This document shows positions 9,695 to 52,800 of a stretch of DNA of 64,000 nucleotides, one piece after another; position 1 is the first letter of the stretch, and each line of letters starts with the position of its first letter. Source of the DNA: Thermoleophilia bacterium (GTDB lineage Bacteria > Actinomycetota > Thermoleophilia > BMS3ABIN01); contig JBAZZU010000002.1 of the NCBI GenBank assembly GCA_041658605.1, forward strand, positions 1,477 to 65,476, read 5' to 3'. The position numbers and the translations under genes are program-made. The notes under the pieces are model-generated. The model worked only from the letters and a program-made list of their open reading frames with translations, made no database searches and was not told the origin of the DNA.

Positions 9695-10936
9695 CTAGCC
9701 GAAAATCTTCGGCAGCCTCTTCTTCCAGCTCAGGGGGAGGATTATATCTATGGCGTCATCGACGGTGACTATCCCGCGCAGCACGTTTTCCCCGTCGGTT
9801 ATCGGCAGCGCCAGCAGGTTGTATTTGGCGACCACATGGGCTACTTCGTCCAGCGATGCGTCGGCGCGCATGCTGATGAGGTGATGCTCCATGAATTCCT
9901 CGACCTTCTGGTCGCGTCGGGCCAGGATCAGGTCGCGTAGCGAGAAGACTCCCGCGAGATGGCCGTCGTCATCGACGACGTAGATGTAATAGATGGTCTC
10001 GGCGTCCGGTTCCAGCTCACGCAGGCGGCCGATGGCCTGGCCGGCAGTCATCCCCGGAGGCACTGAAACGAATTCGGTGGTCATTACACCGCCGGCTGTG
10101 TCCTCCTCGTACCTGAGCAGGTGCTGGACGTCCCGCGCCTCTTTCGTCCTCATCGAGGCCAGCAGCGACGCGGCTTTTTCCTCCGGCAGGTCGGCCAGCA
10201 GGTCGGCTGCGTCATCCGGGTCCATGTTGGAGAGGATAGTCGCCGCTTTCTTTTCGTCCATGTCATTGAGCAGGATGGCCTGTAAGTTCGGGTGCATCTC
10301 CTCGACCGTGTCGGCCGCGACCTCGTCCTCGAGCGCTTCGACGACCGCGACCCGCTCTTCAGGAGAAAGCTCGTTGGCGATGTCGGCGATATCGGCCGGA
10401 TGGAGCAAAGCCAGTTTGTCGTGGGTCAGCTGAAGCTTCATGCCGCTGGATTCACCACTGACAGGCTCGACGGTTTTCCAGTCGATCAGGCGCGGTTCCA
10501 CTCTGCGGGAAAACCGTTCTGCCAGTCTCGAGAGTCCGAGCCGGCGCATGATGGCGCCGCCCGATATGTCCACACCCACGACCCTCAGGGAACCGTTAGC
10601 GCGCGCAAGCTGCAGGTCGTTGACACGGATGAGCTTGTGGCCCTCGGTATCGACTATCTGCTTGTCGAGGATGTCTCCAGCCAGGAAGATCTCGCCCTCG
10701 CCGGGTTCGACCGCCTCAAGCTGGTCGAGCGGCAGGCGCAGCAGCGTCTGGGATTCCTCAAAATTGCGCACCAGCTCCCAGGGCAGCAGTATTTTCTTGC
10801 GCCCCTGTTTTACCACCAGCTTTGTGGCCGAGGGATACTTGCGCTTGATGGTCACCACTATGTCGTCGAGCACGCCCACAGTGCGGGATCTCGAGTCCTT
10901 GACCTGCTGTCCCAGGATCTTGCTGAGAAAAAACAC
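9695..10936 (-). CDS. MgtE N-terminal domain plus CBS-pair protein without a membrane domain. An N-terminal PRC-barrel-like region is present.
   Basis: MgtE_N helical repeats followed by two CBS domains, with no TM segment. The GTG start at about 10936 has a GGAGGT RBS, which is why I trim the track start at 11068. Confidence 0.7.
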   Translation of the reverse strand: MFFLSKILGQQVKDSRSRTVGVLDDIVVTIKRKYPSATKLVVKQGRKKILLPWELVRNFEESQTLLRLPLDQLEAVEPGEGEIFLAGDILDKQIVDTEGHKLIRVNDLQLARANGSLRVVGVDISGGAIMRRLGLSRLAERFSRRVEPRLIDWKTVEPVSGESSGMKLQLTHDKLALLHPADIADIANELSPEERVAVVEALEDEVAADTVEEMHPNLQAILLNDMDEKKAATILSNMDPDDAADLLADLPEEKAASLLASMRTKEARDVQHLLRYEEDTAGGVMTTEFVSVPPGMTAGQAIGRLRELEPDAETIYYIYVVDDDGHLAGVFSLRDLILARRDQKVEEFMEHHLISMRADASLDEVAHVVAKYNLLALPITDGENVLRGIVTVDDAIDIILPLSWKKRLPKIFG

Positions 10937-10956
10937 GGTTATTACCTCCGGCCAAT

Positions 10957-11240
10957 AAAAAAACCTTCCCCAAAGGGAAGGTTTGCATGCGCACGAAAAC
11001 GTCACTGTCCGGCGCTTATGGATTTGCAGCCTTATCCAAAGCACTACGGCAGTACCGTCTACAGTCACATGGCCTTCCCCAACTCATACAAGCTTTGGCA
11101 CAGCGCATCGTAGAGATTTCTCTCAGCCGTTTCGGGCAAAACCTTATGCCGGTAATGCCTGTTCTACCCGTTGGGGTCTTTGGACCTTTCCGGGCAACGG
11201 CCTGTGTCCGCGCTGGAGCCTCACCTAACGAGGATTAGCT
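10957..11240 (-). ncRNA. M-box (ykoK-leader) Mg2+ riboswitch with its terminator expression platform.
   Basis: The minus strand reads CGUUAGGUGAGGCUCC...UUGCCCGGAAAGGUCCAAAGACCCCAACGGGU...CAUAAGGUU...GUGCCAAAGCUUG, which matches the conserved M-box segments. The terminator CCUUCCC-UUUG-GGGAAGG plus U7 at 10985-10957 lies about 20 nt before the gene start. Confidence 0.8.
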
Positions 11241-30272: not shown

Positions 30273-31238
30273 CTATTTTTCCCTGACCTGCTGCCGCCAG
30301 TAATCAAGGGTGTCTTCAAGACTCTGCCTGAGCGTTATGTCGGCAGCCCAGGGATGAAGCGACTTCAGCTTTGATGAGTCACCTTCAACAACCGGTGTAT
30401 CCGACGGTCGCATCAGTTCGGGGATATTCTCTATTTTGGGTGAGATTCCCGCGATATCGAGCATCATTTCGAGTATCTCACTGATCGTGTGTGACTCTCC
30501 CGACGCTATATTATATACCTCTCCCGCCAGCCCGTGCGCCACCAGCAGATAGTATGCCCTGACGATATCCCTGACGTCGGTAAAATCACGCCGCGACTCA
30601 AGATTACCCACCCTGATGACCGGTTCGCGCATGCCCGCTTCGATCTCGGCTATCTGCGCGGCGAACGCCGGCACGACGAAATTGCCCACCTGCATCGGCC
30701 CGATGTGGTTGAACGGCCTGGCGACCACCACGTTCATGTCAAAGGCCTCATGATAGGCCAGGCCGACAAACTCCTGCGCCGCCTTGCTGACCGAATACGG
30801 ATTGTTTGGTCTCAGCGCCGCCGTCTCAGCCAGCGGCAGCTCCTGCGGGGTCACCCTGCCATAGACTTCGCTGGAGCTGATCAGCAGAACCTTTGCCTTG
30901 GGAGCGGCCTCCTGGACGGCCTGCATGAGTATCTGCGTGCCGACGACGTTCGTCTCCAGTATGGCGCCCGCCTGCTGCCAGGCGCCGGCTACCTGCGCGC
31001 GCGCCGCCAGATGGATGATGGCATCGGGATTCTCGATCCGAAGTATCTCATCCAGAAGTCCTCCGTCCGCCATATCGCAACCATGGACGTTCGGACCACC
31101 ATCATCAAACAGGCTCCTGAACCGGTCAGTCGGACCCAGCAGGTCCAGGCCGGCGACCTCAATACCATCAATGCCGCGAAGATACGAAGTCAGATGGCTG
31201 CCCGCGAAACCGGTTATGCCTGTGATCAGGATTTTCAA
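30273..31238 (-). CDS. NAD-dependent epimerase/dehydratase, probably GDP-4-keto-6-deoxy-D-mannose reductase (Rmd-like).
   Basis: ILITGITGFAGSHL Rossmann motif and YxxxK. It is adjacent to gmd. Confidence 0.6.
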   Translation of the reverse strand: MKILITGITGFAGSHLTSYLRGIDGIEVAGLDLLGPTDRFRSLFDDGGPNVHGCDMADGGLLDEILRIENPDAIIHLAARAQVAGAWQQAGAILETNVVGTQILMQAVQEAAPKAKVLLISSSEVYGRVTPQELPLAETAALRPNNPYSVSKAAQEFVGLAYHEAFDMNVVVARPFNHIGPMQVGNFVVPAFAAQIAEIEAGMREPVIRVGNLESRRDFTDVRDIVRAYYLLVAHGLAGEVYNIASGESHTISEILEMMLDIAGISPKIENIPELMRPSDTPVVEGDSSKLKSLHPWAADITLRQSLEDTLDYWRQQVREK

Positions 31239-31343
31239 AAATATCTCCCATTTGTTTCATCAACCCGGATGTGCCGAGTAGTGGGCACGAATTGAGATTA
31301 TAGCAACTCGCATTGTGTATTGAAGCCAGCGGGGGTGATATAT

Positions 31344-31371
31344 TATAATCATGCAAATATTTGAATATTCA
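31344..31371 (+). promoter_or_regulatory. Candidate -10 box plus a palindromic operator for the ArsR-family regulator.
   Basis: TATAAT at 31344-31349. A perfect 10-bp palindrome TGAATATTCA lies at 31362-31371, about 25 bp before the arsR-like start. ArsR/SmtB operators typically carry a TGAA...TTCA core. Confidence 0.4.
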
Positions 31372-31393
31372 CATATACACAGGGGCGTAGAAC

Positions 31394-31753
31394 ATGACTG
31401 ACGAGTTAAACCGAAAGCTATACGAGATGCACGCGGAGATCTGCAAGGTGCTGACCAATCCGAAGCGCATCGAGATCCTCAATCTCCTGCGCGATGGTGA
31501 AAGGTCCGTGGGCGACCTGGCGCTGCTTGCCGAACTGCCGCAGACCAGCGTGTCCCAGCACCTCTCCTTTTTGCGGCAGAAGGGCATGGTTGTATCGAGG
31601 CGCGACGGTTCGAGCATTTATTACACCGTCGCCAACGAAAAGATATTCAGTGCGATGGACATCATGAAGGAGCTGTTGCTGGAAAGACTGCAGGCGGACC
31701 AGGAACTTGTGGCCGGTCTTGCGGGGAGTCCGGCCTCAGCGGGGCGACCGTAA
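31394..31753 (+). CDS. ArsR/SmtB-family transcriptional regulator.
   Basis: HTH region ILNLL...SVGDLA...QTSVSQHLSFLRQKGMV. A single Cys. Confidence 0.8.
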   Translation: MTDELNRKLYEMHAEICKVLTNPKRIEILNLLRDGERSVGDLALLAELPQTSVSQHLSFLRQKGMVVSRRDGSSIYYTVANEKIFSAMDIMKELLLERLQADQELVAGLAGSPASAGRP

Positions 31754-31778
31754 AAAATTACAGGAGAAAGGCGGCACA

Positions 31779-32033
31779 ATGATGGATCCGGTTGTTATTT
31801 ATACCAGCTCTACGTGACACGACTGCCAAAAAGCGAAAGAGTTCTTTTCGCAAAGCGGGGTAGAGTACATAGAACGTAACCTGGAGGAGCCTGGAGTTCC
31901 CGAGGAATGCTTCGAGAGAACCGGGCTTATGACAAAGACTACTATGATAATCAGCGGCGAGGTTGTCAGCGGTTATGCAGCCAACGCCCAGCATGTCAGC
32001 GAATTGATCAATGACCTGAAAGCACGGGATTGA
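31779..32033 (+). CDS. Glutaredoxin-like thioredoxin-fold protein with an in-frame TGA at the first active-site Cys. This is a candidate selenoprotein with a UxxC motif.
   Basis: It translates as MMDPVVIYTSST-[TGA 31815-31817]-HDCQKAKEFFSQSGVEYIERNL...TTMIISGEVVSGY. This aligns to Grx/NrdH (VxIYT...CxxC...K...G; PxIxIxG..IGG). An AGGAGA RBS is present. A hairpin lies 16 nt after the TGA. Confidence 0.55.
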
Positions 32034-32100
32034 CAGAAGCGGGACTCAGCCGGAAGAACATGATCATTCAACTGGAAGAAAAAACGCGGGAGGTCGCGGG

Positions 32101-33255
32101 ATGGCTGGAAAAACTGTAATAGTTCTGGGTGGCGGCATCGGCGGCCTGGTGGCCGCCAACAGGCTTCATCATCTCCTCGGGCGTGATCACAGGGTCATCG
32201 TGGTCGACAAAAACTCCCGGCACAGTTTCACGGGCTCCTATTTATGGATTCTCAACGGGAAGCGTACAACCGGACAGGTTGAACGGGAATTATCCCGGCT
32301 CGAGCGCAAGGGCATCGATTTCATCAGGGGCGAAGTAACCTCGATCGACCCGGCGGCATCGAAAGTCACTGTCGGGGGAAAAGACCTGGATTACGATTAC
32401 CTGGTGGTTTCGCTCGGAGCCGAGCTGGACATGGGCTCAATCCCCGGCCTCTCCCGTGCGGCCATCAATATCTATGGGACCGACGGCCTGACCGAAGCCA
32501 GCAAGGCGCTGAAGTCTTTCAGCGGAGGCCGGCTGGTAATAGCCATCTGCCGCATGCCTTACAAATGCCCCGCCGCGCCCTACGAGACAGCCCTGATCGC
32601 GGACAACGTCCTGCGTTCCACGGGTGCGCGCGACACGACCGAGATCGAGATTGTCACATGGGAGCCGGCGCCCATGCCCGTGGCCGGTCCGGTGATGGGC
32701 CAGGCGATCCTGTCCCTGACTGAACCAAGGGGCATCAAATACCGGCCTAATTCCACGATCAATTCGGTCGATCCGGACACCAGACAGGTTTTGCTGGAAG
32801 GCGATGAGCCGGCGCCATATGATCTGCTCCTGACTGTGCCGCCGCACAAGTGTCCCCAGGTCATCAAGGACGCCGGGCTGACCGGCGATGCTCCCTGGGT
32901 GCCGGTGGATCCCGGTACGCTGGCCACGCAGCACGAAAACATATTCGTTATCGGCGACGCCACCATGATCAAGCTTCCCAACGGCAAGATGCTTCCCAAG
33001 GCGGGAGTTTTTGCCCACAAGCACGCCGAGACCGTGGCGCACGGGATAGCCGCGAGCATAAAAGGCAAGCCGCAGCCGAAACCGTACGACGGCGAAGGAT
33101 TTTGTTTCGTCGAGGTCGGCGACGGATCGGCGGGTTTCGCAAAAGGCAATTTCTACGCGGAACCCGATCCCGCCGTGAACGCGCGCAAACCCTCCAGGAG
33201 ACTGCACTGGGGCAAGGTCGCCTTCGAAAAGTACTGGTTCTGGAAGTACCTGTAA
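32101..33255 (+). CDS. FAD-dependent pyridine nucleotide-disulfide oxidoreductase, sulfide:quinone oxidoreductase-like.
   Basis: VIVLGGGIGG FAD motif. Conserved Cys in KCPAAPYE and a C-terminal Cys. About 384 aa. Confidence 0.55.
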   Translation: MAGKTVIVLGGGIGGLVAANRLHHLLGRDHRVIVVDKNSRHSFTGSYLWILNGKRTTGQVERELSRLERKGIDFIRGEVTSIDPAASKVTVGGKDLDYDYLVVSLGAELDMGSIPGLSRAAINIYGTDGLTEASKALKSFSGGRLVIAICRMPYKCPAAPYETALIADNVLRSTGARDTTEIEIVTWEPAPMPVAGPVMGQAILSLTEPRGIKYRPNSTINSVDPDTRQVLLEGDEPAPYDLLLTVPPHKCPQVIKDAGLTGDAPWVPVDPGTLATQHENIFVIGDATMIKLPNGKMLPKAGVFAHKHAETVAHGIAASIKGKPQPKPYDGEGFCFVEVGDGSAGFAKGNFYAEPDPAVNARKPSRRLHWGKVAFEKYWFWKYL

Positions 33256-33284
33256 GCTAAAGGCGCATCAGATTTCCAGAGTTA

Positions 33285-33310
33285 AGGGGCGCGCCTTCGG
33301 CGCGCCCCTC
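33285..33310. terminator. Bidirectional GC-rich hairpin terminator between convergent genes.
   Basis: AGGGGCGCGCC-TTCG-GGCGCGCCCCT: a perfect 11-bp stem with a UUCG loop. Confidence 0.6.
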
Positions 33311-33341
33311 TTAATTCAGGTCCAGTTACCTCGCCCGGCGG

Positions 33342-34031
33342 CTATTCCCTGCTGATCAGAATCATTCGTACCAGGGTCAGGATGGACATCAGCGCAGCCG
33401 CGACATATGTGAGCGCCGCCGCGGACAGCACCTTGCGGGCGCTTTTCGCTTCCTCGCCGACGATGATGCCGTTGTTCTGCAGGAGCTTCATGGCGCGGCT
33501 GGATGCGTCGAATTCAACCGGCAGGGTCACGATCTGGAATATCACGGCTGCCGTGAAAAGTACGATGCCTACGGTCATCAGTGGACGAAAAGAGCTGATG
33601 AAAATACCTGCCAGGAAAATCATCGGTCCCAGGCTGGAGCCGAAAGAAGCCGCGGGAACCACAGCCGAGCGGATCTTCATCGGGACATAACCATTCGCAT
33701 GCTGGATCGCATGCCCGGCCTCATGAGCGGCTACCCCGAGTGAAGCCAGTGAATCCTTGCTGGCAACCGCCTCGCTCAGCCTCAGGACACGCTTGCGGGG
33801 GTCGTAATGGTCCGACAGGTTACCGGGAATCACTTCGATCGGCACATCGGTCAGCCCTGCCTGGTCAAGCAGCCGCCGGCTCGCCTGGGCGCCGGTCATG
33901 CCGCTTGCGGCCTTGACCTGCGAGTATTTCTTAAACGTACTCTTGACCTTGAACTGCGCATACAGGCTCAGGATTATCGCCGGCACAAGCAGCAGCAAGC
34001 TGGTAAAGAAGATTGGTGATGCTGGAAACAT
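33342..34031 (-). CDS. YugP-family putative neutral zinc metallopeptidase.
   Basis: HEAGHAIQH HExxH motif and TM segments. Confidence 0.7.
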   Translation of the reverse strand: MFPASPIFFTSLLLLVPAIILSLYAQFKVKSTFKKYSQVKAASGMTGAQASRRLLDQAGLTDVPIEVIPGNLSDHYDPRKRVLRLSEAVASKDSLASLGVAAHEAGHAIQHANGYVPMKIRSAVVPAASFGSSLGPMIFLAGIFISSFRPLMTVGIVLFTAAVIFQIVTLPVEFDASSRAMKLLQNNGIIVGEEAKSARKVLSAAALTYVAAALMSILTLVRMILISRE

Positions 34032-52370: not shown

Positions 52371-52593
52371 CAGACTACCTCCTCAATCGCAGAGACGTCA
52401 TGTTCATGGACTCCGCGAGGCGCTTTTTATAACCTTTCTTTAATTCATTGTATTCACTTGATCAGGGAGCCGCAAGGAAGATGAAAAGTCGCCGGGTTTG
52501 CCCCGGCCCGGCATTGGTAAGACTATTGATGGATCTGTGCGATGATATGCAGATATTCGCATCCGCAACCTGTCCGGAAGGAGTAAGCGAATA

Positions 52594-52800
52594 ATGGAAG
52601 AAAGAAAGATAACCGGTGATATGGTCATCAACGAGGTTATCAGGCTCTACCCCTGGACGCTGCCCGTCTTCCACAGTCTGGATGTGGATTCATGCTGTGG
52701 CGGCGCCCGGACTGTGGCCACCATGGCCCGGGAGCACGGGCTTGAACTCGATGGGGTCCTCGACAAGCTTGAAGCCGCGGCGGAAACATCTCAATCGTAA
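52594..52800 (+). CDS. DUF1858 domain protein.
   Basis: 68 aa with the pattern I..YP...VF...CCGG...L. Confidence 0.5.
   Translation: MEERKITGDMVINEVIRLYPWTLPVFHSLDVDSCCGGARTVATMAREHGLELDGVLDKLEAAAETSQS

What the first reader, a model, noticed from the sequence alone, without database searches (positions are those of the whole stretch)
31344..33255. ArsR-type regulator, seleno-glutaredoxin and SQR-like flavoprotein form a compact putative sulfide/persulfide-responsive module
Three co-directional genes sit in short order: arsR-like at 31394-31753, Grx(U) at 31779-32033, and an FAD-dependent disulfide oxidoreductase at 32101-33255. The gaps are 25 and 67 bp.

The last gene carries the KCPAAPYE Cys motif typical of sulfide:quinone oxidoreductases. 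Its upstream region has a -10 box at 31344-31349. A perfect palindrome TGAATATTCA at 31362-31371 fits the TGAA..TTCA core of ArsR/SmtB operators.

ArsR-family persulfide sensors of the SqrR/BigR/CstR type control sqr genes in other bacteria. An SQR partnered with a Sec-containing Grx-like thiol/selenol carrier would be an unusual arrangement. A terminator hairpin at 33285-33310 closes the unit.
Basis: inference. Interest (0 to 1): 0.6.

Follow-up and report, generated by a model that had tools for sequence, protein, structure and literature searches.

The report
Selenoprotein redoxin in sulfide-oxidation operon
An uncultured actinobacterium (class Thermoleophilia) carries a compact, probably self-regulated three-gene unit in which a selenocysteine-containing glutaredoxin-like protein that gene callers miss sits between a repressor and a sulfide:quinone-reductase-type enzyme, which suggests the enzyme hands sulfur to a dedicated protein partner.

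Summary

**Glutaredoxin-like gene.** It is a real selenoprotein gene. Eleven related loci keep the in-frame TGA (T-U-x-D-C). A hairpin 15 nt downstream is invariant even at synonymous sites, with one compensatory G-C to A-U change. Databases hold only truncated 50-60 aa forms.

**Flavoprotein.** It belongs to the SQR family, not to NDH-2 or CoA-disulfide reductases. Both catalytic Cys and both quinone-site Phe are conserved. The predicted fold is closest to Aquifex SQR, and the nearest curated model is type III SQR, but below its cutoff.

**Regulator.** It is neither a metal sensor nor an SqrR/BigR-type dithiol sensor. It has one invariant Cys, in helix α1.

**Operator.** The conserved candidate is AT[G/T]C-N8-G[C/A]AT at 31351-31366, just after the -10 box, with the spacing of the SqrR operator.

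**Wider context.** About half of 77 related SQR loci have a YchN/DsrE-like gene directly upstream. Three Grx(U) loci have both genes. Three genomes fuse a Sec-containing TlpA-like domain to the SQR.

**Most likely function.** This is a sulfide-oxidation and sulfane-sulfur-handling operon with a selenoprotein redoxin as acceptor or resolver. I rate it a new variant of a known kind, of moderate interest.

The parts
31320..31349 (+). σ70-type promoter: -35 TTGAAG (31320-31325), 18-nt spacer, -10 TATAAT (31344-31349)
   Evidence: 10 of 12 matches, and the only + strand promoter-like site in 31100-33500. Equivalent TTGAC-type -35 and TATA-type -10 elements stand upstream of the arsR orthologues in the related loci.
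31351..31366 (.). Candidate operator: imperfect inverted repeat ATGC-AAATATTT-GAAT (4-8-4), directly after the -10 box and over the expected transcription start
   Evidence: A box of the form AT[G/T]C-N8-G[C/A]AT occupies the same place in most orthologous promoters, and the right half-site is degenerate in some (TCAT, AAAT, GCAC). L091 carries the exact reverse complement, ATTCAAATATTTGCAT. Only one other match with up to 3 mismatches exists in the 64-kb window, against 0.29 expected. The spacing matches the SqrR core operator ATTC-N8-GAAT (bioRxiv 10.64898/2026.05.15.721447, read). Binding has not been tested.
31362..31371 (.).
   Evidence: Present in the window. Not conserved: L002 and L093 read TGAATATCAA, and it is absent from the other orthologous promoters. 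It is probably a by-product of the AT-rich box.
31394..31753 (+). ArsR-family winged-helix regulator, 119 aa. Its single Cys is Cys17 (codon 31442-31444) in helix α1. It has no metal sites and no α2/α5 Cys pair.
   Evidence: Pfam HTH_5 E = 1.1e-13. NCBIfam HTH_metalloreg subfamily 81.7 bits; BigR equivalog 49.5 bits against a cutoff of 155. Closest solved structures are Rv0081 and HlyU. Cys17 is invariant in all 11 orthologues and in all window-like ('group A') relatives from other phyla.
31779..32033 (+). Glutaredoxin-like selenoprotein gene, 84 aa, with active site T-U-H-D-C. The RBS AGGAGA is at 31762-31767.
   Evidence: The Pfam Glutaredoxin match (36.2 bits, cutoff 22.9) spans the TGA position. 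The closest solved structure is Grx 7C10, whose CPHC Cys aligns with U. TGA is kept in 11 of 11 loci, and the peptide is conserved on both sides of it. Gene callers skipped or truncated the gene.
31815..31817 (+). In-frame UGA read as selenocysteine (residue 13)
   Evidence: TGA is otherwise the commonest ordinary stop codon in the window (25 of 61 ORFs). This is therefore site-specific recoding, not codon reassignment.
31833..31851 (+). SECIS-like hairpin GCGAAAG-AGUUC-UUUUCGC (7-bp stem, 5-nt loop containing GU), starting 15 nt after the UGA
   Evidence: The hairpin is invariant at synonymous sites. None of the 5 amino-acid-invariant codons inside it vary, against 30 of 36 elsewhere in the gene (Fisher p = 6e-4). 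Across 9 sequences 98% of cells pair, with one compensatory G-C to A-U change (L091) and one mismatch (L082). The single-sequence fold is not significant on its own (z = -0.92). No Rfam family matched.
32101..33255 (+). SQR-family FAD flavoprotein, 384 aa. Catalytic Cys156 (32566-32568) and Cys335 (33103-33105). N-terminal GGGIGG FAD motif. C-terminal amphipathic helix.
   Evidence: The closest NCBIfam model is NF049943, type III SQR selenoprotein subtype: 243.8 bits, E = 2.8e-72, cutoff 525. By sequence, PDB SQR chains score 1e-29 and NDH-2 about 1e-21, the latter over only part of the protein. The AF2 model has pLDDT 91.6. Foldseek TM-scores are 0.88 to Aquifex SQR 3HYV, 0.78 to NDH-2 and 0.69 to CoA-persulfide reductase. 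C156, C335 and F375 are invariant and F336 nearly invariant.
33285..33309 (.). GC-rich hairpin between the convergent genes sqr (+) and a Zn-peptidase gene (-); probable bidirectional terminator
   Evidence: -30.8 kcal/mol, z = -6.7, and none of 200 shuffles folds as well. It has no T-run of 5 or more, so the scan did not call it.

Best explanation
This is an autoregulated three-gene operon (arsR-like, grxU, sqr-like) of an uncultured Thermoleophilia-type actinobacterium. It most likely deals with sulfide and sulfane sulfur.

**Proposed mechanism**
1. The ArsR-family repressor binds the ATGC-N8-GAAT box that overlaps the transcription start of a σ70-type promoter. It is released when its single conserved Cys17 is modified by a reactive sulfur (or other oxidising) species.
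2. The SQR-family flavoprotein oxidises sulfide on its Cys156/Cys335 pair and passes the electrons through FAD to a membrane quinone.
3. The Sec-containing glutaredoxin-like protein (UxxC) acts as the enzyme's protein partner. It either takes the sulfane sulfur off the enzyme as a selenenyl-sulfide or persulfide adduct, or it reductively resolves the enzyme-bound polysulfide.

In most relatives a YchN/DsrE-like Cys (or Sec) protein is encoded directly upstream of the SQR gene. Some relatives have both it and Grx(U). This lineage has kept only Grx(U).

**Shown by the data:** gene identities, Sec recoding, conserved gene order, the conserved operator-like box, and the SQR family assignment.

**Inferred:** co-transcription, repressor binding, the inducer, the direction of sulfur or electron flow, and the exact role of Grx(U).
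For: **Conserved linkage.** ArsR-Grx(U)-[DsrE]-SQR is found in the 10 of 11 distinct Grx(U) loci whose contig reaches the SQR gene. The eleventh (L094) ends after Grx. SQR identity to the window protein falls to about 68% across this set.

**Genuine selenoprotein.**
- TGA is conserved and the peptide is conserved on both sides of it.
- Cys homologues exist with a CxDC motif.
- A hairpin under synonymous-site constraint carries one compensatory change.

**SQR identity.**
- Closest curated HMM, sequence matches and fold all point to SQR.
- Cys156/Cys335 match the positions published as the canonical type III pair, Cys159/Cys339 (PMC13047784).
- Phe336 and Phe375 align with the quinone-site Phe of Aquifex and A. 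ferrooxidans SQR (PMC9666304).
- Residues 143-162 show no second GxGxxG, so there is no NAD(P)H site (read).

**Protein partners recur next to this SQR family.**
- 38 of 77 genome loci have a YchN/DsrE-like gene directly upstream.
- L034 has ArsR-thioredoxin-DsrE-...-SQR.
- L003, L013, L047 and protein P0118 fuse a TlpA/AhpC-like W-x-x-U-x-x-C domain to an SQR-like protein. This is a Rosetta-stone link between a Sec redoxin and this enzyme family.

**Sec has been recruited repeatedly at the reactive Cys positions of the module.**
- At the DsrE-like UGxC motif in 10 loci.
- At SQR C156 in L038.
- At SQR C335 in L027 and L077.

**Regulation.**
- One promoter lies upstream of arsR, and the scan found no intergenic promoter or terminator sites.
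- The conserved box follows the -10 element.
- The box has the geometry of the SqrR operator.

**Precedent.** A type III SQR operon with TusA and DsrE2 is induced by sulfide in Methylacidiphilum (PMC10205796).
Against: - No experiment bears on any step.
- The regulator lacks the cysteine pair that defines known ArsR-type persulfide sensors, so its inducer is unknown.
- The type III assignment rests on the nearest curated HMM, which scores below its cutoff. I could not run a tree against references of types I-VI. The whole 80-locus family scores only 225-245 bits against a cutoff of 525.
- The window contains no other sulfur-oxidation genes (persulfide dioxygenase, rhodanese, TauE) and no Sec-insertion machinery.
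- The nearest Cys homologue of the Grx sits next to a copper ATPase, not an SQR.
- The Grx lacks the cis-proline usual in the thioredoxin fold: it has K-T-T-M where relatives have V-P-T.
- Covariation in the hairpin is a single event, and 61 of 500 shuffles reach the same score.
Confidence: 0.6

Rival explanations
1. The Sec-glutaredoxin serves the regulator rather than the enzyme. It would act as a redox relay or reset factor for the one-Cys ArsR repressor, forming or reducing a mixed Se-S bond or a persulfide on Cys17, much as peroxidase-to-transcription-factor relays work.
For: - grxU lies immediately after arsR, 25 bp away.
- Window-like ('group A') ArsR proteins from other phyla usually carry a second Cys at position 87 in α5. 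That holds for 7 of 9 such proteins: L066, L004, L051, L060, L059, L034 and L017.
- All Grx(U)-linked regulators have Met at that position and keep only Cys17.
- Loss of a possible resolving Cys therefore coincides with the presence of Grx(U).
Against: - The coincidence is probably a single evolutionary event within one clade.
- Fusions of a Sec redoxin domain directly to SQR-like proteins, and the thioredoxin gene in the L034 operon, point to the enzyme as the partner.
- The two roles do not exclude each other.
Confidence: 0.13
2. The flavoprotein is not primarily a sulfide oxidase. It would be a quinone-linked oxidoreductase whose substrate is the small protein itself: Grx(U), a YchN/DsrE-like protein or a fused TlpA-like domain. 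It would then couple protein dithiol, selenol-thiol or protein-persulfide redox chemistry to the quinone pool.
For: - A small Cys/Sec protein is near-constantly encoded beside this SQR-like family, or fused to it.
- The family is distinct from biochemically characterised SQRs, at no more than 27% identity to any solved SQR.
- It falls below the cutoff of the only curated type III model.
Against: - The full SQR catalytic apparatus is conserved: the Cys pair, the quinone-site Phe residues and the fold.
- Characterised type III SQRs oxidise sulfide, and Methylacidiphilum induces such an operon with sulfide (PMC10205796).
Confidence: 0.15
3. The module handles selenium rather than sulfur, for example by oxidising or trafficking selenide.
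For: - There is a weak match to TIGR03169, the oxidoreductase domain found fused to SelD: 79.7 bits against a cutoff of 310.
- Sec recurs in several components of the module.
- A. ferrooxidans SQR has been crystallised with selenide bound (3SZ0, listed).
Against: - The TIGR03169 match is far below its cutoff and reflects general family similarity.
- No SelD or other selenium-metabolism gene is nearby.
- Most members of the wider family and their carrier proteins use Cys.
Confidence: 0.06

Closest known systems
Type III sulfide:quinone oxidoreductase operons with sulfur-carrier genes (for example Methylacidiphilum fumariolicum MFUM_v2_0219-0221: SQR, TusA, DsrE2; PMC10205796)
   Same: - An SQR-family flavoprotein with two catalytic Cys at about positions 156 and 335.
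- No signal peptide-like N-terminus; the protein begins directly with the FAD motif.
- Co-encoded with small Cys-based sulfur-handling proteins.
- The nearest curated HMM is a type III SQR model.
   Different: - The partner here is a Sec-containing glutaredoxin-fold protein, not TusA or DsrE. DsrE/YchN has been lost in this lineage.
- The operon begins with its own ArsR-family regulator.
- The flavoprotein is below the cutoff of the curated type III model, and I did not place it on a tree.
Selenoprotein glutaredoxins (PF00462, UxxC; for example Clostridium/Alkaliphilus oremlandii Grx; listed in PMC13188914)
   Same: - Glutaredoxin fold.
- Sec occupies the N-terminal position of the CxxC motif.
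- A SECIS-like hairpin lies just downstream of the UGA within the coding sequence.
   Different: - This is a divergent, narrow clade. A search of 1.84 billion representative proteins found only truncated Thermoleophilia forms at high identity. The nearest Cys homologues are 33-38% identical.
- The motif is U-x-D-C, with a third invariant Cys (Cys44).
- There is no cis-Pro.
- It is fixed in an SQR operon rather than paired with MsrA or similar partners.
SqrR/BigR/HlyU persulfide-sensing ArsR repressors (SSN cluster 4; PMC10054925)
   Same: - ArsR winged-helix fold.
- Sulfur-metabolism gene neighbourhood.
- A 4-8-4 operator geometry close to ATTC-N8-GAAT.
- HlyU is among the two closest solved relatives.
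   Different: - It lacks both sensing cysteines (α2 and C-terminal α5).
- Its conserved Cys is in α1.
- It scores far below the BigR equivalog cutoff.
- It is as close to Rv0081, from an uncharacterised cluster linked to hypoxia, as it is to HlyU.
YchN/DsrE-like small sulfur-related proteins, including the known DsrE-like selenoproteins (PF02635, UxxC)
   Same: These occupy the equivalent slot, directly upstream of the SQR-like gene, in 38 of 77 related loci. They sit alongside Grx(U) in L082, L087 and L091. They use Cys or Sec at one reactive position.
   Different: No such gene exists in the window. Grx(U) has a different fold.

Membership tests
Sulfide:quinone oxidoreductase (SQR) family | N-terminal FAD-binding GxGxxG Rossmann motif and the two-dinucleotide-binding-domain flavoprotein fold | tested here: met
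   GGGIGG at residues 10-15 is invariant. Pfam Pyr_redox_2 and FCSD_central match. The AF2 model (pLDDT 91.6) has TM 0.88 to Aquifex SQR 3HYV.
Sulfide:quinone oxidoreductase (SQR) family | Two redox-active cysteines facing the flavin (Aquifex C156/C347; A. ferrooxidans C160/C356) | tested here: met
   C156 aligns with the Aquifex 'vsCfgpaYE' Cys and C335 with 'saiCiadfg'. Both are invariant in 22 homologues. In relatives these same positions are occupied by Sec.
Sulfide:quinone oxidoreductase (SQR) family | Quinone-site aromatic residues (A. ferrooxidans Phe357/Phe394; Aquifex Phe385) | tested here: met
   F336 (next to C335) is nearly invariant. F375 aligns with Aquifex F385 and is invariant (residue roles from PMC9666304).
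Sulfide:quinone oxidoreductase (SQR) family | Sulfide-dependent quinone reduction | not testable with these tools
   This is a biochemical assay.
Type III SQR specifically | Clusters with type III references in a phylogeny of types I-VI, or passes a curated type III model | tested here: inconclusive
   The best NCBIfam hit is NF049943 (type III, selenoprotein subtype) at 243.8 bits, against a cutoff of 525. No other SQR-type model matched. Related loci all score 226-242 bits. Reference sequences for types III, IV and VI could not be obtained: the papers were not held and afdb50 was unavailable.
Type II NADH dehydrogenase (NDH-2) | Second GxGxxG NAD(H)-binding motif; no catalytic Cys pair | tested here: not met
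   Residues 143-162 read GGRLVIAICRMPYKCPAAPYE, with no GxGxxG. PDB NDH-2 chains match only part of the protein (E = 1e-21, 2 stretches). The structural TM-score is lower, 0.78 against 0.88.
CoA-disulfide / persulfide reductases | Single N-terminal active-site Cys near the FAD motif; NAD(P)H site; passes TIGR03385 | tested here: not met
   TIGR03385 scores 31.6 bits against a cutoff of 578.8. TM is 0.69 to CoAPR 8A56.
Bacterial selenoprotein (Grx-type, UxxC) | In-frame UGA aligned with an active-site Cys of homologues, with coding conservation on both sides | tested here: met
   U13 aligns with the first Cys of CPHC in Grx 7C10 and of CxDC in P0129, P0131, P0132 and P0138. TGA is kept in 11 of 11 loci, with a conserved peptide before and after it.
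Bacterial selenoprotein (Grx-type, UxxC) | SECIS hairpin within about 11-40 nt downstream of the UGA | tested here: met
   The 7-bp stem and 5-nt loop (AGUUC) start 15 nt after the UGA. The hairpin shows no synonymous variation (p = 6e-4) and one compensatory pair. SelB binding is untested.
Bacterial selenoprotein (Grx-type, UxxC) | Genome encodes SelA, SelB, SelD and tRNA-Sec | not testable with these tools
   None of these is in the 64-kb window: no tRNA, and the Pfam survey found none. The rest of the MAG could not be queried.
Glutaredoxin (PF00462) | Passes the Pfam gathering threshold; thioredoxin fold with a cis-Pro before β3 | tested here: inconclusive
   The Pfam score is 36.2 against a cutoff of 22.9. 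However, the cis-Pro position (V-P-T in P0129 and others) reads K-T-T here and in all Grx(U) orthologues. All narrower NCBIfam Grx models are below their cutoffs.
SqrR/BigR/HlyU-type persulfide-sensing ArsR | Conserved Cys pair in α2 and α5 that forms an intraprotomer polysulfide bridge | tested here: not met
   Asn30 aligns with HlyU's α2 Cys ('RLQILCML' against 'RIEILNLL'). α5 has no Cys. The only Cys is Cys17 in α1. The family definition is from PMC10054925.
SqrR/BigR/HlyU-type persulfide-sensing ArsR | Operator with core ATTC-N8-GAAT | tested here: inconclusive
   A conserved box ATGC-N8-GAAT (and variants ATGC-N8-GCAT, ATTC-N8-GCAT) lies at the promoter. The operator definition is from bioRxiv 10.64898/2026.05.15.721447. 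Binding is not tested.
Metal- or metalloid-sensing ArsR/SmtB | α3 CxC (or α3N) site, α5 Asp/His site, or α4 Cys site | tested here: not met
   α3 reads SVGDLA, not CVC. α5 (FSAMDIMKELLLERL) has no His or Cys. α4 (TSVSQHLSFL) has no Cys.
CstR | CsoR-family all-helical fold | tested here: not met
   The protein is an HTH_5/ArsR winged-helix protein. CstR-type sensors belong to the CsoR family (PMC10054925).

The most novel reading that the evidence does not exclude
The selenoprotein glutaredoxin would be the dedicated protein acceptor of sulfane sulfur from a type III-like SQR, carrying it as a Se-S adduct. It would also relay that signal to the one-Cys ArsR repressor, which has lost its second cysteine. 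A single selenoprotein would then couple catalysis to transcriptional control of its own operon.
Probability: 0.12. Interest if true: 0.75.

Novelty: new variant of a known kind. Interest (0 to 1): 0.5.

Why it matters
**An open question becomes testable.** The physiological acceptor of the sulfane sulfur made by bacterial SQRs, particularly the little-studied type III-like enzymes, is poorly defined. Across many phyla this enzyme family is encoded beside, or fused to, a small Cys/Sec protein: YchN/DsrE-like, thioredoxin, TlpA-like, or here a seleno-glutaredoxin. That points to protein-mediated sulfur or electron hand-off, and it supplies defined protein pairs for an in vitro test.

**A missed selenoprotein subfamily.** This glutaredoxin-like subfamily is truncated or missing in every database entry I found.

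**Selenium use clusters around one catalytic module.** Sec has been recruited independently at several reactive Cys positions of the module: DsrE-like, SQR C156, SQR C335, the fused TlpA-like domain, and Grx.

**A new regulator group.** The operon exposes an ArsR subgroup with a conserved α1 Cys whose signal is unknown.

Tried and rejected
- **Rfam.** A gathering-threshold scan of the whole window found only an M-box riboswitch and no SECIS family.
- **Single-sequence fold.** Folding the region downstream of the UGA gave no significant result (z = -0.92). The SECIS case rests on comparative data instead.
- **SQR type references.** Reference type III SQR information could not be obtained. The two Caldivirga papers are not held, the Sulfolobales paper had nothing relevant, and the afdb50 fold library was unavailable. 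No type I-VI tree was built.
- **Cys-homologue context.** The nearest Cys homologue of the Grx (P0129) lies next to a copper P-type ATPase. This gives no support for a link to SQR.
- **Pfam survey.** About 40 other window ORFs include no sulfur-oxidation, selenium-metabolism or Sec-insertion genes.
- **'Grx replaces DsrE'.** I rejected simple replacement, because L082, L087 and L091 carry both genes. Loss of DsrE in the window's sublineage is more likely.
- **TGA reassignment.** Rejected, because TGA ends 25 of 61 ORFs in the window.
Rejected, because it is not conserved.
- **Metagenome scan.** A scan for more Grx(U) loci added two (L093, L094). The other 14 hits were distant Grx-like genes and were not pursued.


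Full report
**Observation**

- The ArsR-like ORF is at 31394-31753.
- The glutaredoxin-like ORF is at 31779-32033. It is interrupted by TGA at 31815-31817 and translates as MMDPVVIYTSST*HDCQKAKEFF....
- The 384-aa flavoprotein is at 32101-33255.
- The gaps are 25 and 67 bp.
- The promoter scan finds a single + strand σ70-like site in 31100-33500: TTGAAG, an 18-nt spacer, then TATAAT, ending at 31349.
- TGAATATTCA is at 31362-31371.
- The hairpin at 33285-33309 folds at -30.8 kcal/mol (z = -6.7). It lies between convergent genes and has no clean T-run.

**Source organism**

The flavoprotein is found on one 148.8-kb ENA metagenome contig. Its closest relatives, at 68-94% identity, come from MAGs labelled Thermoleophilia or Actinobacteria. 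The gene caller used for that contig left the Grx region uncalled.

**The glutaredoxin-like gene is a selenoprotein gene**

*Homology across the TGA.* With U replaced by C, the protein passes Pfam Glutaredoxin (36.2 bits, cutoff 22.9). The match spans the TGA position. Its best solved relative is the 84-aa Grx 7C10, whose CPHC first Cys aligns with U.

*Database coverage.* A search of 5.8 billion proteins found only seven relatives. All are 50-60 aa fragments that start downstream of the TGA, and the few that carry any annotation are labelled 'hypothetical protein' from Thermoleophilia. An exhaustive HMMER search of 1.84 billion representatives found the nearest full-length relatives at 33-38% identity. 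They carry Cys at the U position, for example TIYTSSTCADCQSAKEF.

*Conservation of the TGA.* I recovered 11 distinct loci: window, L002, L082, L084, L086, L087, L089, L091, L092, L093 and L094. All keep TGA at the same codon. All show a conserved peptide before it (PV.IYT..T) and after it (.DC..AKEFF...EEPGVPEEC...KTTMII.GEVVSGF). TGA is otherwise the commonest normal stop in the window (25 of 61 ORFs).

*SECIS-like hairpin.* Fifteen nucleotides after the UGA lies the hairpin GCGAAAG-AGUUC-UUUUCGC (31833-31851).
- Among amino-acid-invariant degenerate codons in the gene, 30 of 36 outside the hairpin show synonymous variation. None of the 5 inside it does (Fisher p = 6e-4).
- L091 carries a compensatory G-C to A-U change that costs a Ser-to-Leu substitution. 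L082 has one mismatch.
- The position and form fit a bacterial SECIS element, judged from established knowledge of SelB-dependent recoding.
- No Rfam family matched, and the single-sequence fold is unremarkable.
- Whether the genome encodes the Sec-insertion machinery could not be checked.

**The flavoprotein is SQR-family**

[quoted passage not shown] This is below its cutoff of 525. CoA-disulfide reductase models score about 30 bits. PDB sequence matches are led by Aquifex, human and A. ferrooxidans SQR (about 1e-29 to 1e-25). NDH-2 matches are weaker and partial.

*Structure.* An AlphaFold model (pLDDT 91.6) superposes best on Aquifex SQR (TM 0.88). NDH-2 scores 0.78 and CoA-persulfide reductase 0.69.

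*Catalytic residues.*
- Cys156 (in KCPAAPYE) and Cys335 (in GFCFVE) align with the two catalytic Cys of Aquifex SQR.
- Both are invariant in 22 homologues.
- They match the published canonical type III positions Cys159/Cys339 (PMC13047784).
- Phe336 and Phe375 align with the quinone-site phenylalanines (PMC9666304).
- There is no second GxGxxG, so an NAD(P)H-dependent reductase is unlikely.

*Type assignment.* I could not obtain type III, IV or VI reference sequences. 'Type III-like' therefore rests on the closest curated model only. The whole family of related loci scores 226-242 bits against that model.

**The regulator**

It is an ArsR/SmtB-fold protein. Its closest solved relatives are Rv0081 and HlyU (E = 2e-14 each).

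It has none of the known metal sites. It also lacks the α2/α5 cysteine pair that defines all known ArsR-type persulfide sensors (PMC10054925). Asn30 stands where HlyU has its α2 Cys.

Its only Cys, Cys17 in α1, is invariant in all 11 orthologues. It is also invariant in a set of window-like ('group A') ArsR genes that stand co-directionally upstream of DsrE-SQR pairs. These occur in Chloroflexota, Calditrichota, Gemmatimonadota, Saccharibacteria, other Actinomycetota and two archaeal MAGs.

Seven of the nine non-Thermoleophilia group A members have a second Cys at position 87 (α5). All Grx(U)-linked regulators have Met there. The regulator is therefore neither a metal sensor nor a member of the SqrR/BigR class. 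Its signal is unknown. A thiol-based response through Cys17 is an inference.

**The operator**

A box directly after the -10 element is conserved in the orthologous promoters, although the right half-site is degenerate in some of them:

| Locus | Box |
|---|---|
| window, L002, L093 | ATGCAAATATTTGAAT |
| L082 | ATGCAAATATACGCAT |
| L084, L086, L094 | ATGCGAACATCTGCAC |
| L087 | ATGCAAATATCATCAT |
| L089 | ATGCAAATATCAAAAT |
| L092 | ATGCGCATGTATGCAC |
| L091 | ATTCAAATATTTGCAT (exact reverse complement of the window box) |

The archaeal group A locus L004 has a perfect ATTC-N8-GAAT.

This 4-8-4 geometry equals the SqrR core operator ATTC-N8-GAAT (bioRxiv 10.64898/2026.05.15.721447). Its position over the expected transcription start fits repression by occlusion.

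In the whole window only one other site matches with up to 3 mismatches, against 0.29 expected by chance. That site is ATGCAGATATTCGCAT at 52547-52562. It lies 31 nt upstream of a small ScdA_N/DUF542 gene.

**Wider context**

A scan of one genome per species returned at least 590 loci that encode relatives of the flavoprotein. I examined the best 80.
- About 37 of these have an ArsR-family gene within 4 kb upstream.
- 38 of 77 eligible loci have a YchN/DsrE-like gene directly upstream and co-directional. In total 51 of 77 have one somewhere in the locus. Pfam DsrE matches, and the closest structure is E. coli YchN 1JX7.
- Three of the Grx(U) loci (L082, L087, L091) carry ArsR-Grx(U)-DsrE-SQR. 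The others, including the window, lack DsrE. Grx(U) is therefore an addition specific to this Thermoleophilia clade, and DsrE was probably lost later.

Sec recurs in this module.
- Ten DsrE-like genes have TGA at the reactive Cys (A-U-G-x-C).
- SQR genes have TGA at the C156 position (L038) or the C335 position (L027, L077).

Thioredoxin-fold partners also recur.
- L034 has ArsR-thioredoxin-DsrE-...-SQR.
- L003 is a sister genome whose SQR is 96% identical to that of L084. It encodes a TlpA/AhpC-like domain with VFWKGQ-U-QGC fused to an SQR-like paralogue.
- L013 and L047 carry the same fusion, and protein P0118 is the same fusion truncated at the Sec codon.

These fusions are Rosetta-stone evidence that a UxxC redoxin works directly with this enzyme family.

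A sulfide-induced type III SQR operon with TusA and DsrE2 has already been described in Methylacidiphilum (PMC10205796). Grx, DsrE-like and type III SQR selenoproteins are each listed in a 2026 review (PMC13188914).

**Interpretation**

The best-supported reading is a self-regulated operon for sulfide oxidation and sulfane-sulfur handling. The SQR-like enzyme passes electrons to quinone. The seleno-glutaredoxin acts as its protein acceptor or resolving partner. I give this a confidence of about 0.6.

The rivals are:
- Grx(U) as a relay or reset factor for the one-Cys repressor;
- the flavoprotein as a quinone-linked oxidoreductase of the small protein itself;
- a role in selenium handling.

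None of these is excluded by the data, and the first is compatible with the main model.

Co-transcription, repressor binding, the inducer and enzyme activity are all untested. The window holds no other sulfur or selenium genes.

**Verdict**

Gene identities, Sec and SQR are right. The regulator class and the operator are wrong.
- The Grx(U) subfamily and its fixed place in an SQR operon appear undescribed. I found no paper describing the arrangement in the library.
- Each component belongs to a known kind, so I rate this a new variant of a known kind, with interest about 0.5.

Noticed in passing
window 52547-52562 and 52594-52800: A second ATGC-N8-GCAT inverted repeat (ATGCAGATATTCGCAT) is the only other near-match in the window to the arsR-promoter box. 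It lies 31 nt upstream of a 68-aa ScdA_N/DUF542 'CCGG' protein gene, which is followed by a LemA-like ORF and an M48/HtpX-like peptidase ORF (both named from reading the sequence only). It may be a second target of the regulator.
   Followed up: partly
L007, L015, L030, L046, L051, L053, L055, L062, L066 and L004:3569-3970: YchN/DsrE-like genes next to SQR-like genes carry an in-frame stop exactly at the reactive Cys (A-U-G-x-C). The stop is TGA in the nine loci; I did not read the codon in L004. These are Sec forms of the carrier, found in Chloroflexota, Nitrospirota and an archaeal MAG. Ordinary ORF calling truncates them.
   Followed up: partly
L038 (SQR C156 position); L027 and L077 (SQR C335 position): SQR-like genes have TGA replacing one or the other catalytic cysteine (K-U-PAAPYE; GY-U-ILE). 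With U changed to C, L027 and L038 score only 227-242 bits against NF049943 (cutoff 525, motif listed as HxxU); L077 was not scored. They may therefore be Sec subtypes that this model does not cover.
   Followed up: partly
L003:2206-3846, L013:3470 onward, L047:2118 onward; protein P0118: A TlpA/AhpC-like thioredoxin-fold domain with W-K-G-Q-U-Q-G-C is fused N-terminally to an SQR-like flavoprotein. TGA was read directly in L003 at 2326-2328. The in-frame stops in L013 and L047 were seen only in the tblastn alignment. Databases hold the product truncated after the Sec codon (481-482 aa).
   Followed up: partly
ArsR orthologue alignment: Window-like ArsR regulators from other phyla usually have a second Cys at position 87 (α5). 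Every regulator that is followed by Grx(U) has Met there. The loss of this Cys coincides with the presence of the seleno-glutaredoxin.
   Followed up: partly
window 31779-32033 and its orthologues: The Grx(U) family has K-T-T-M where its Cys homologues have the thioredoxin-fold cis-Pro (V-P-T). It also has a third invariant Cys (Cys44, in EEPGVPEEC). I have no explanation for either feature.
   Followed up: no
window 11071-11239 (-): An M-box (Mg2+) riboswitch scores 139.5 bits. It lies directly upstream of an MgtE-N/CBS-domain gene (9695-11068, - strand), which is followed by an Nramp transporter gene.
   Followed up: no
L051, L060, L066 (between the DsrE-like and SQR genes): In Chloroflexota versions of the module, a small ORF of about 80-95 aa rich in CxxC motifs (...CRACRRCLAA..C...CYDCRLCVPACPF...) is inserted between the Sec-DsrE-like gene and the SQR gene. 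By eye it looks like a 4Fe-4S ferredoxin. I did not scan it against any family library.
   Followed up: no
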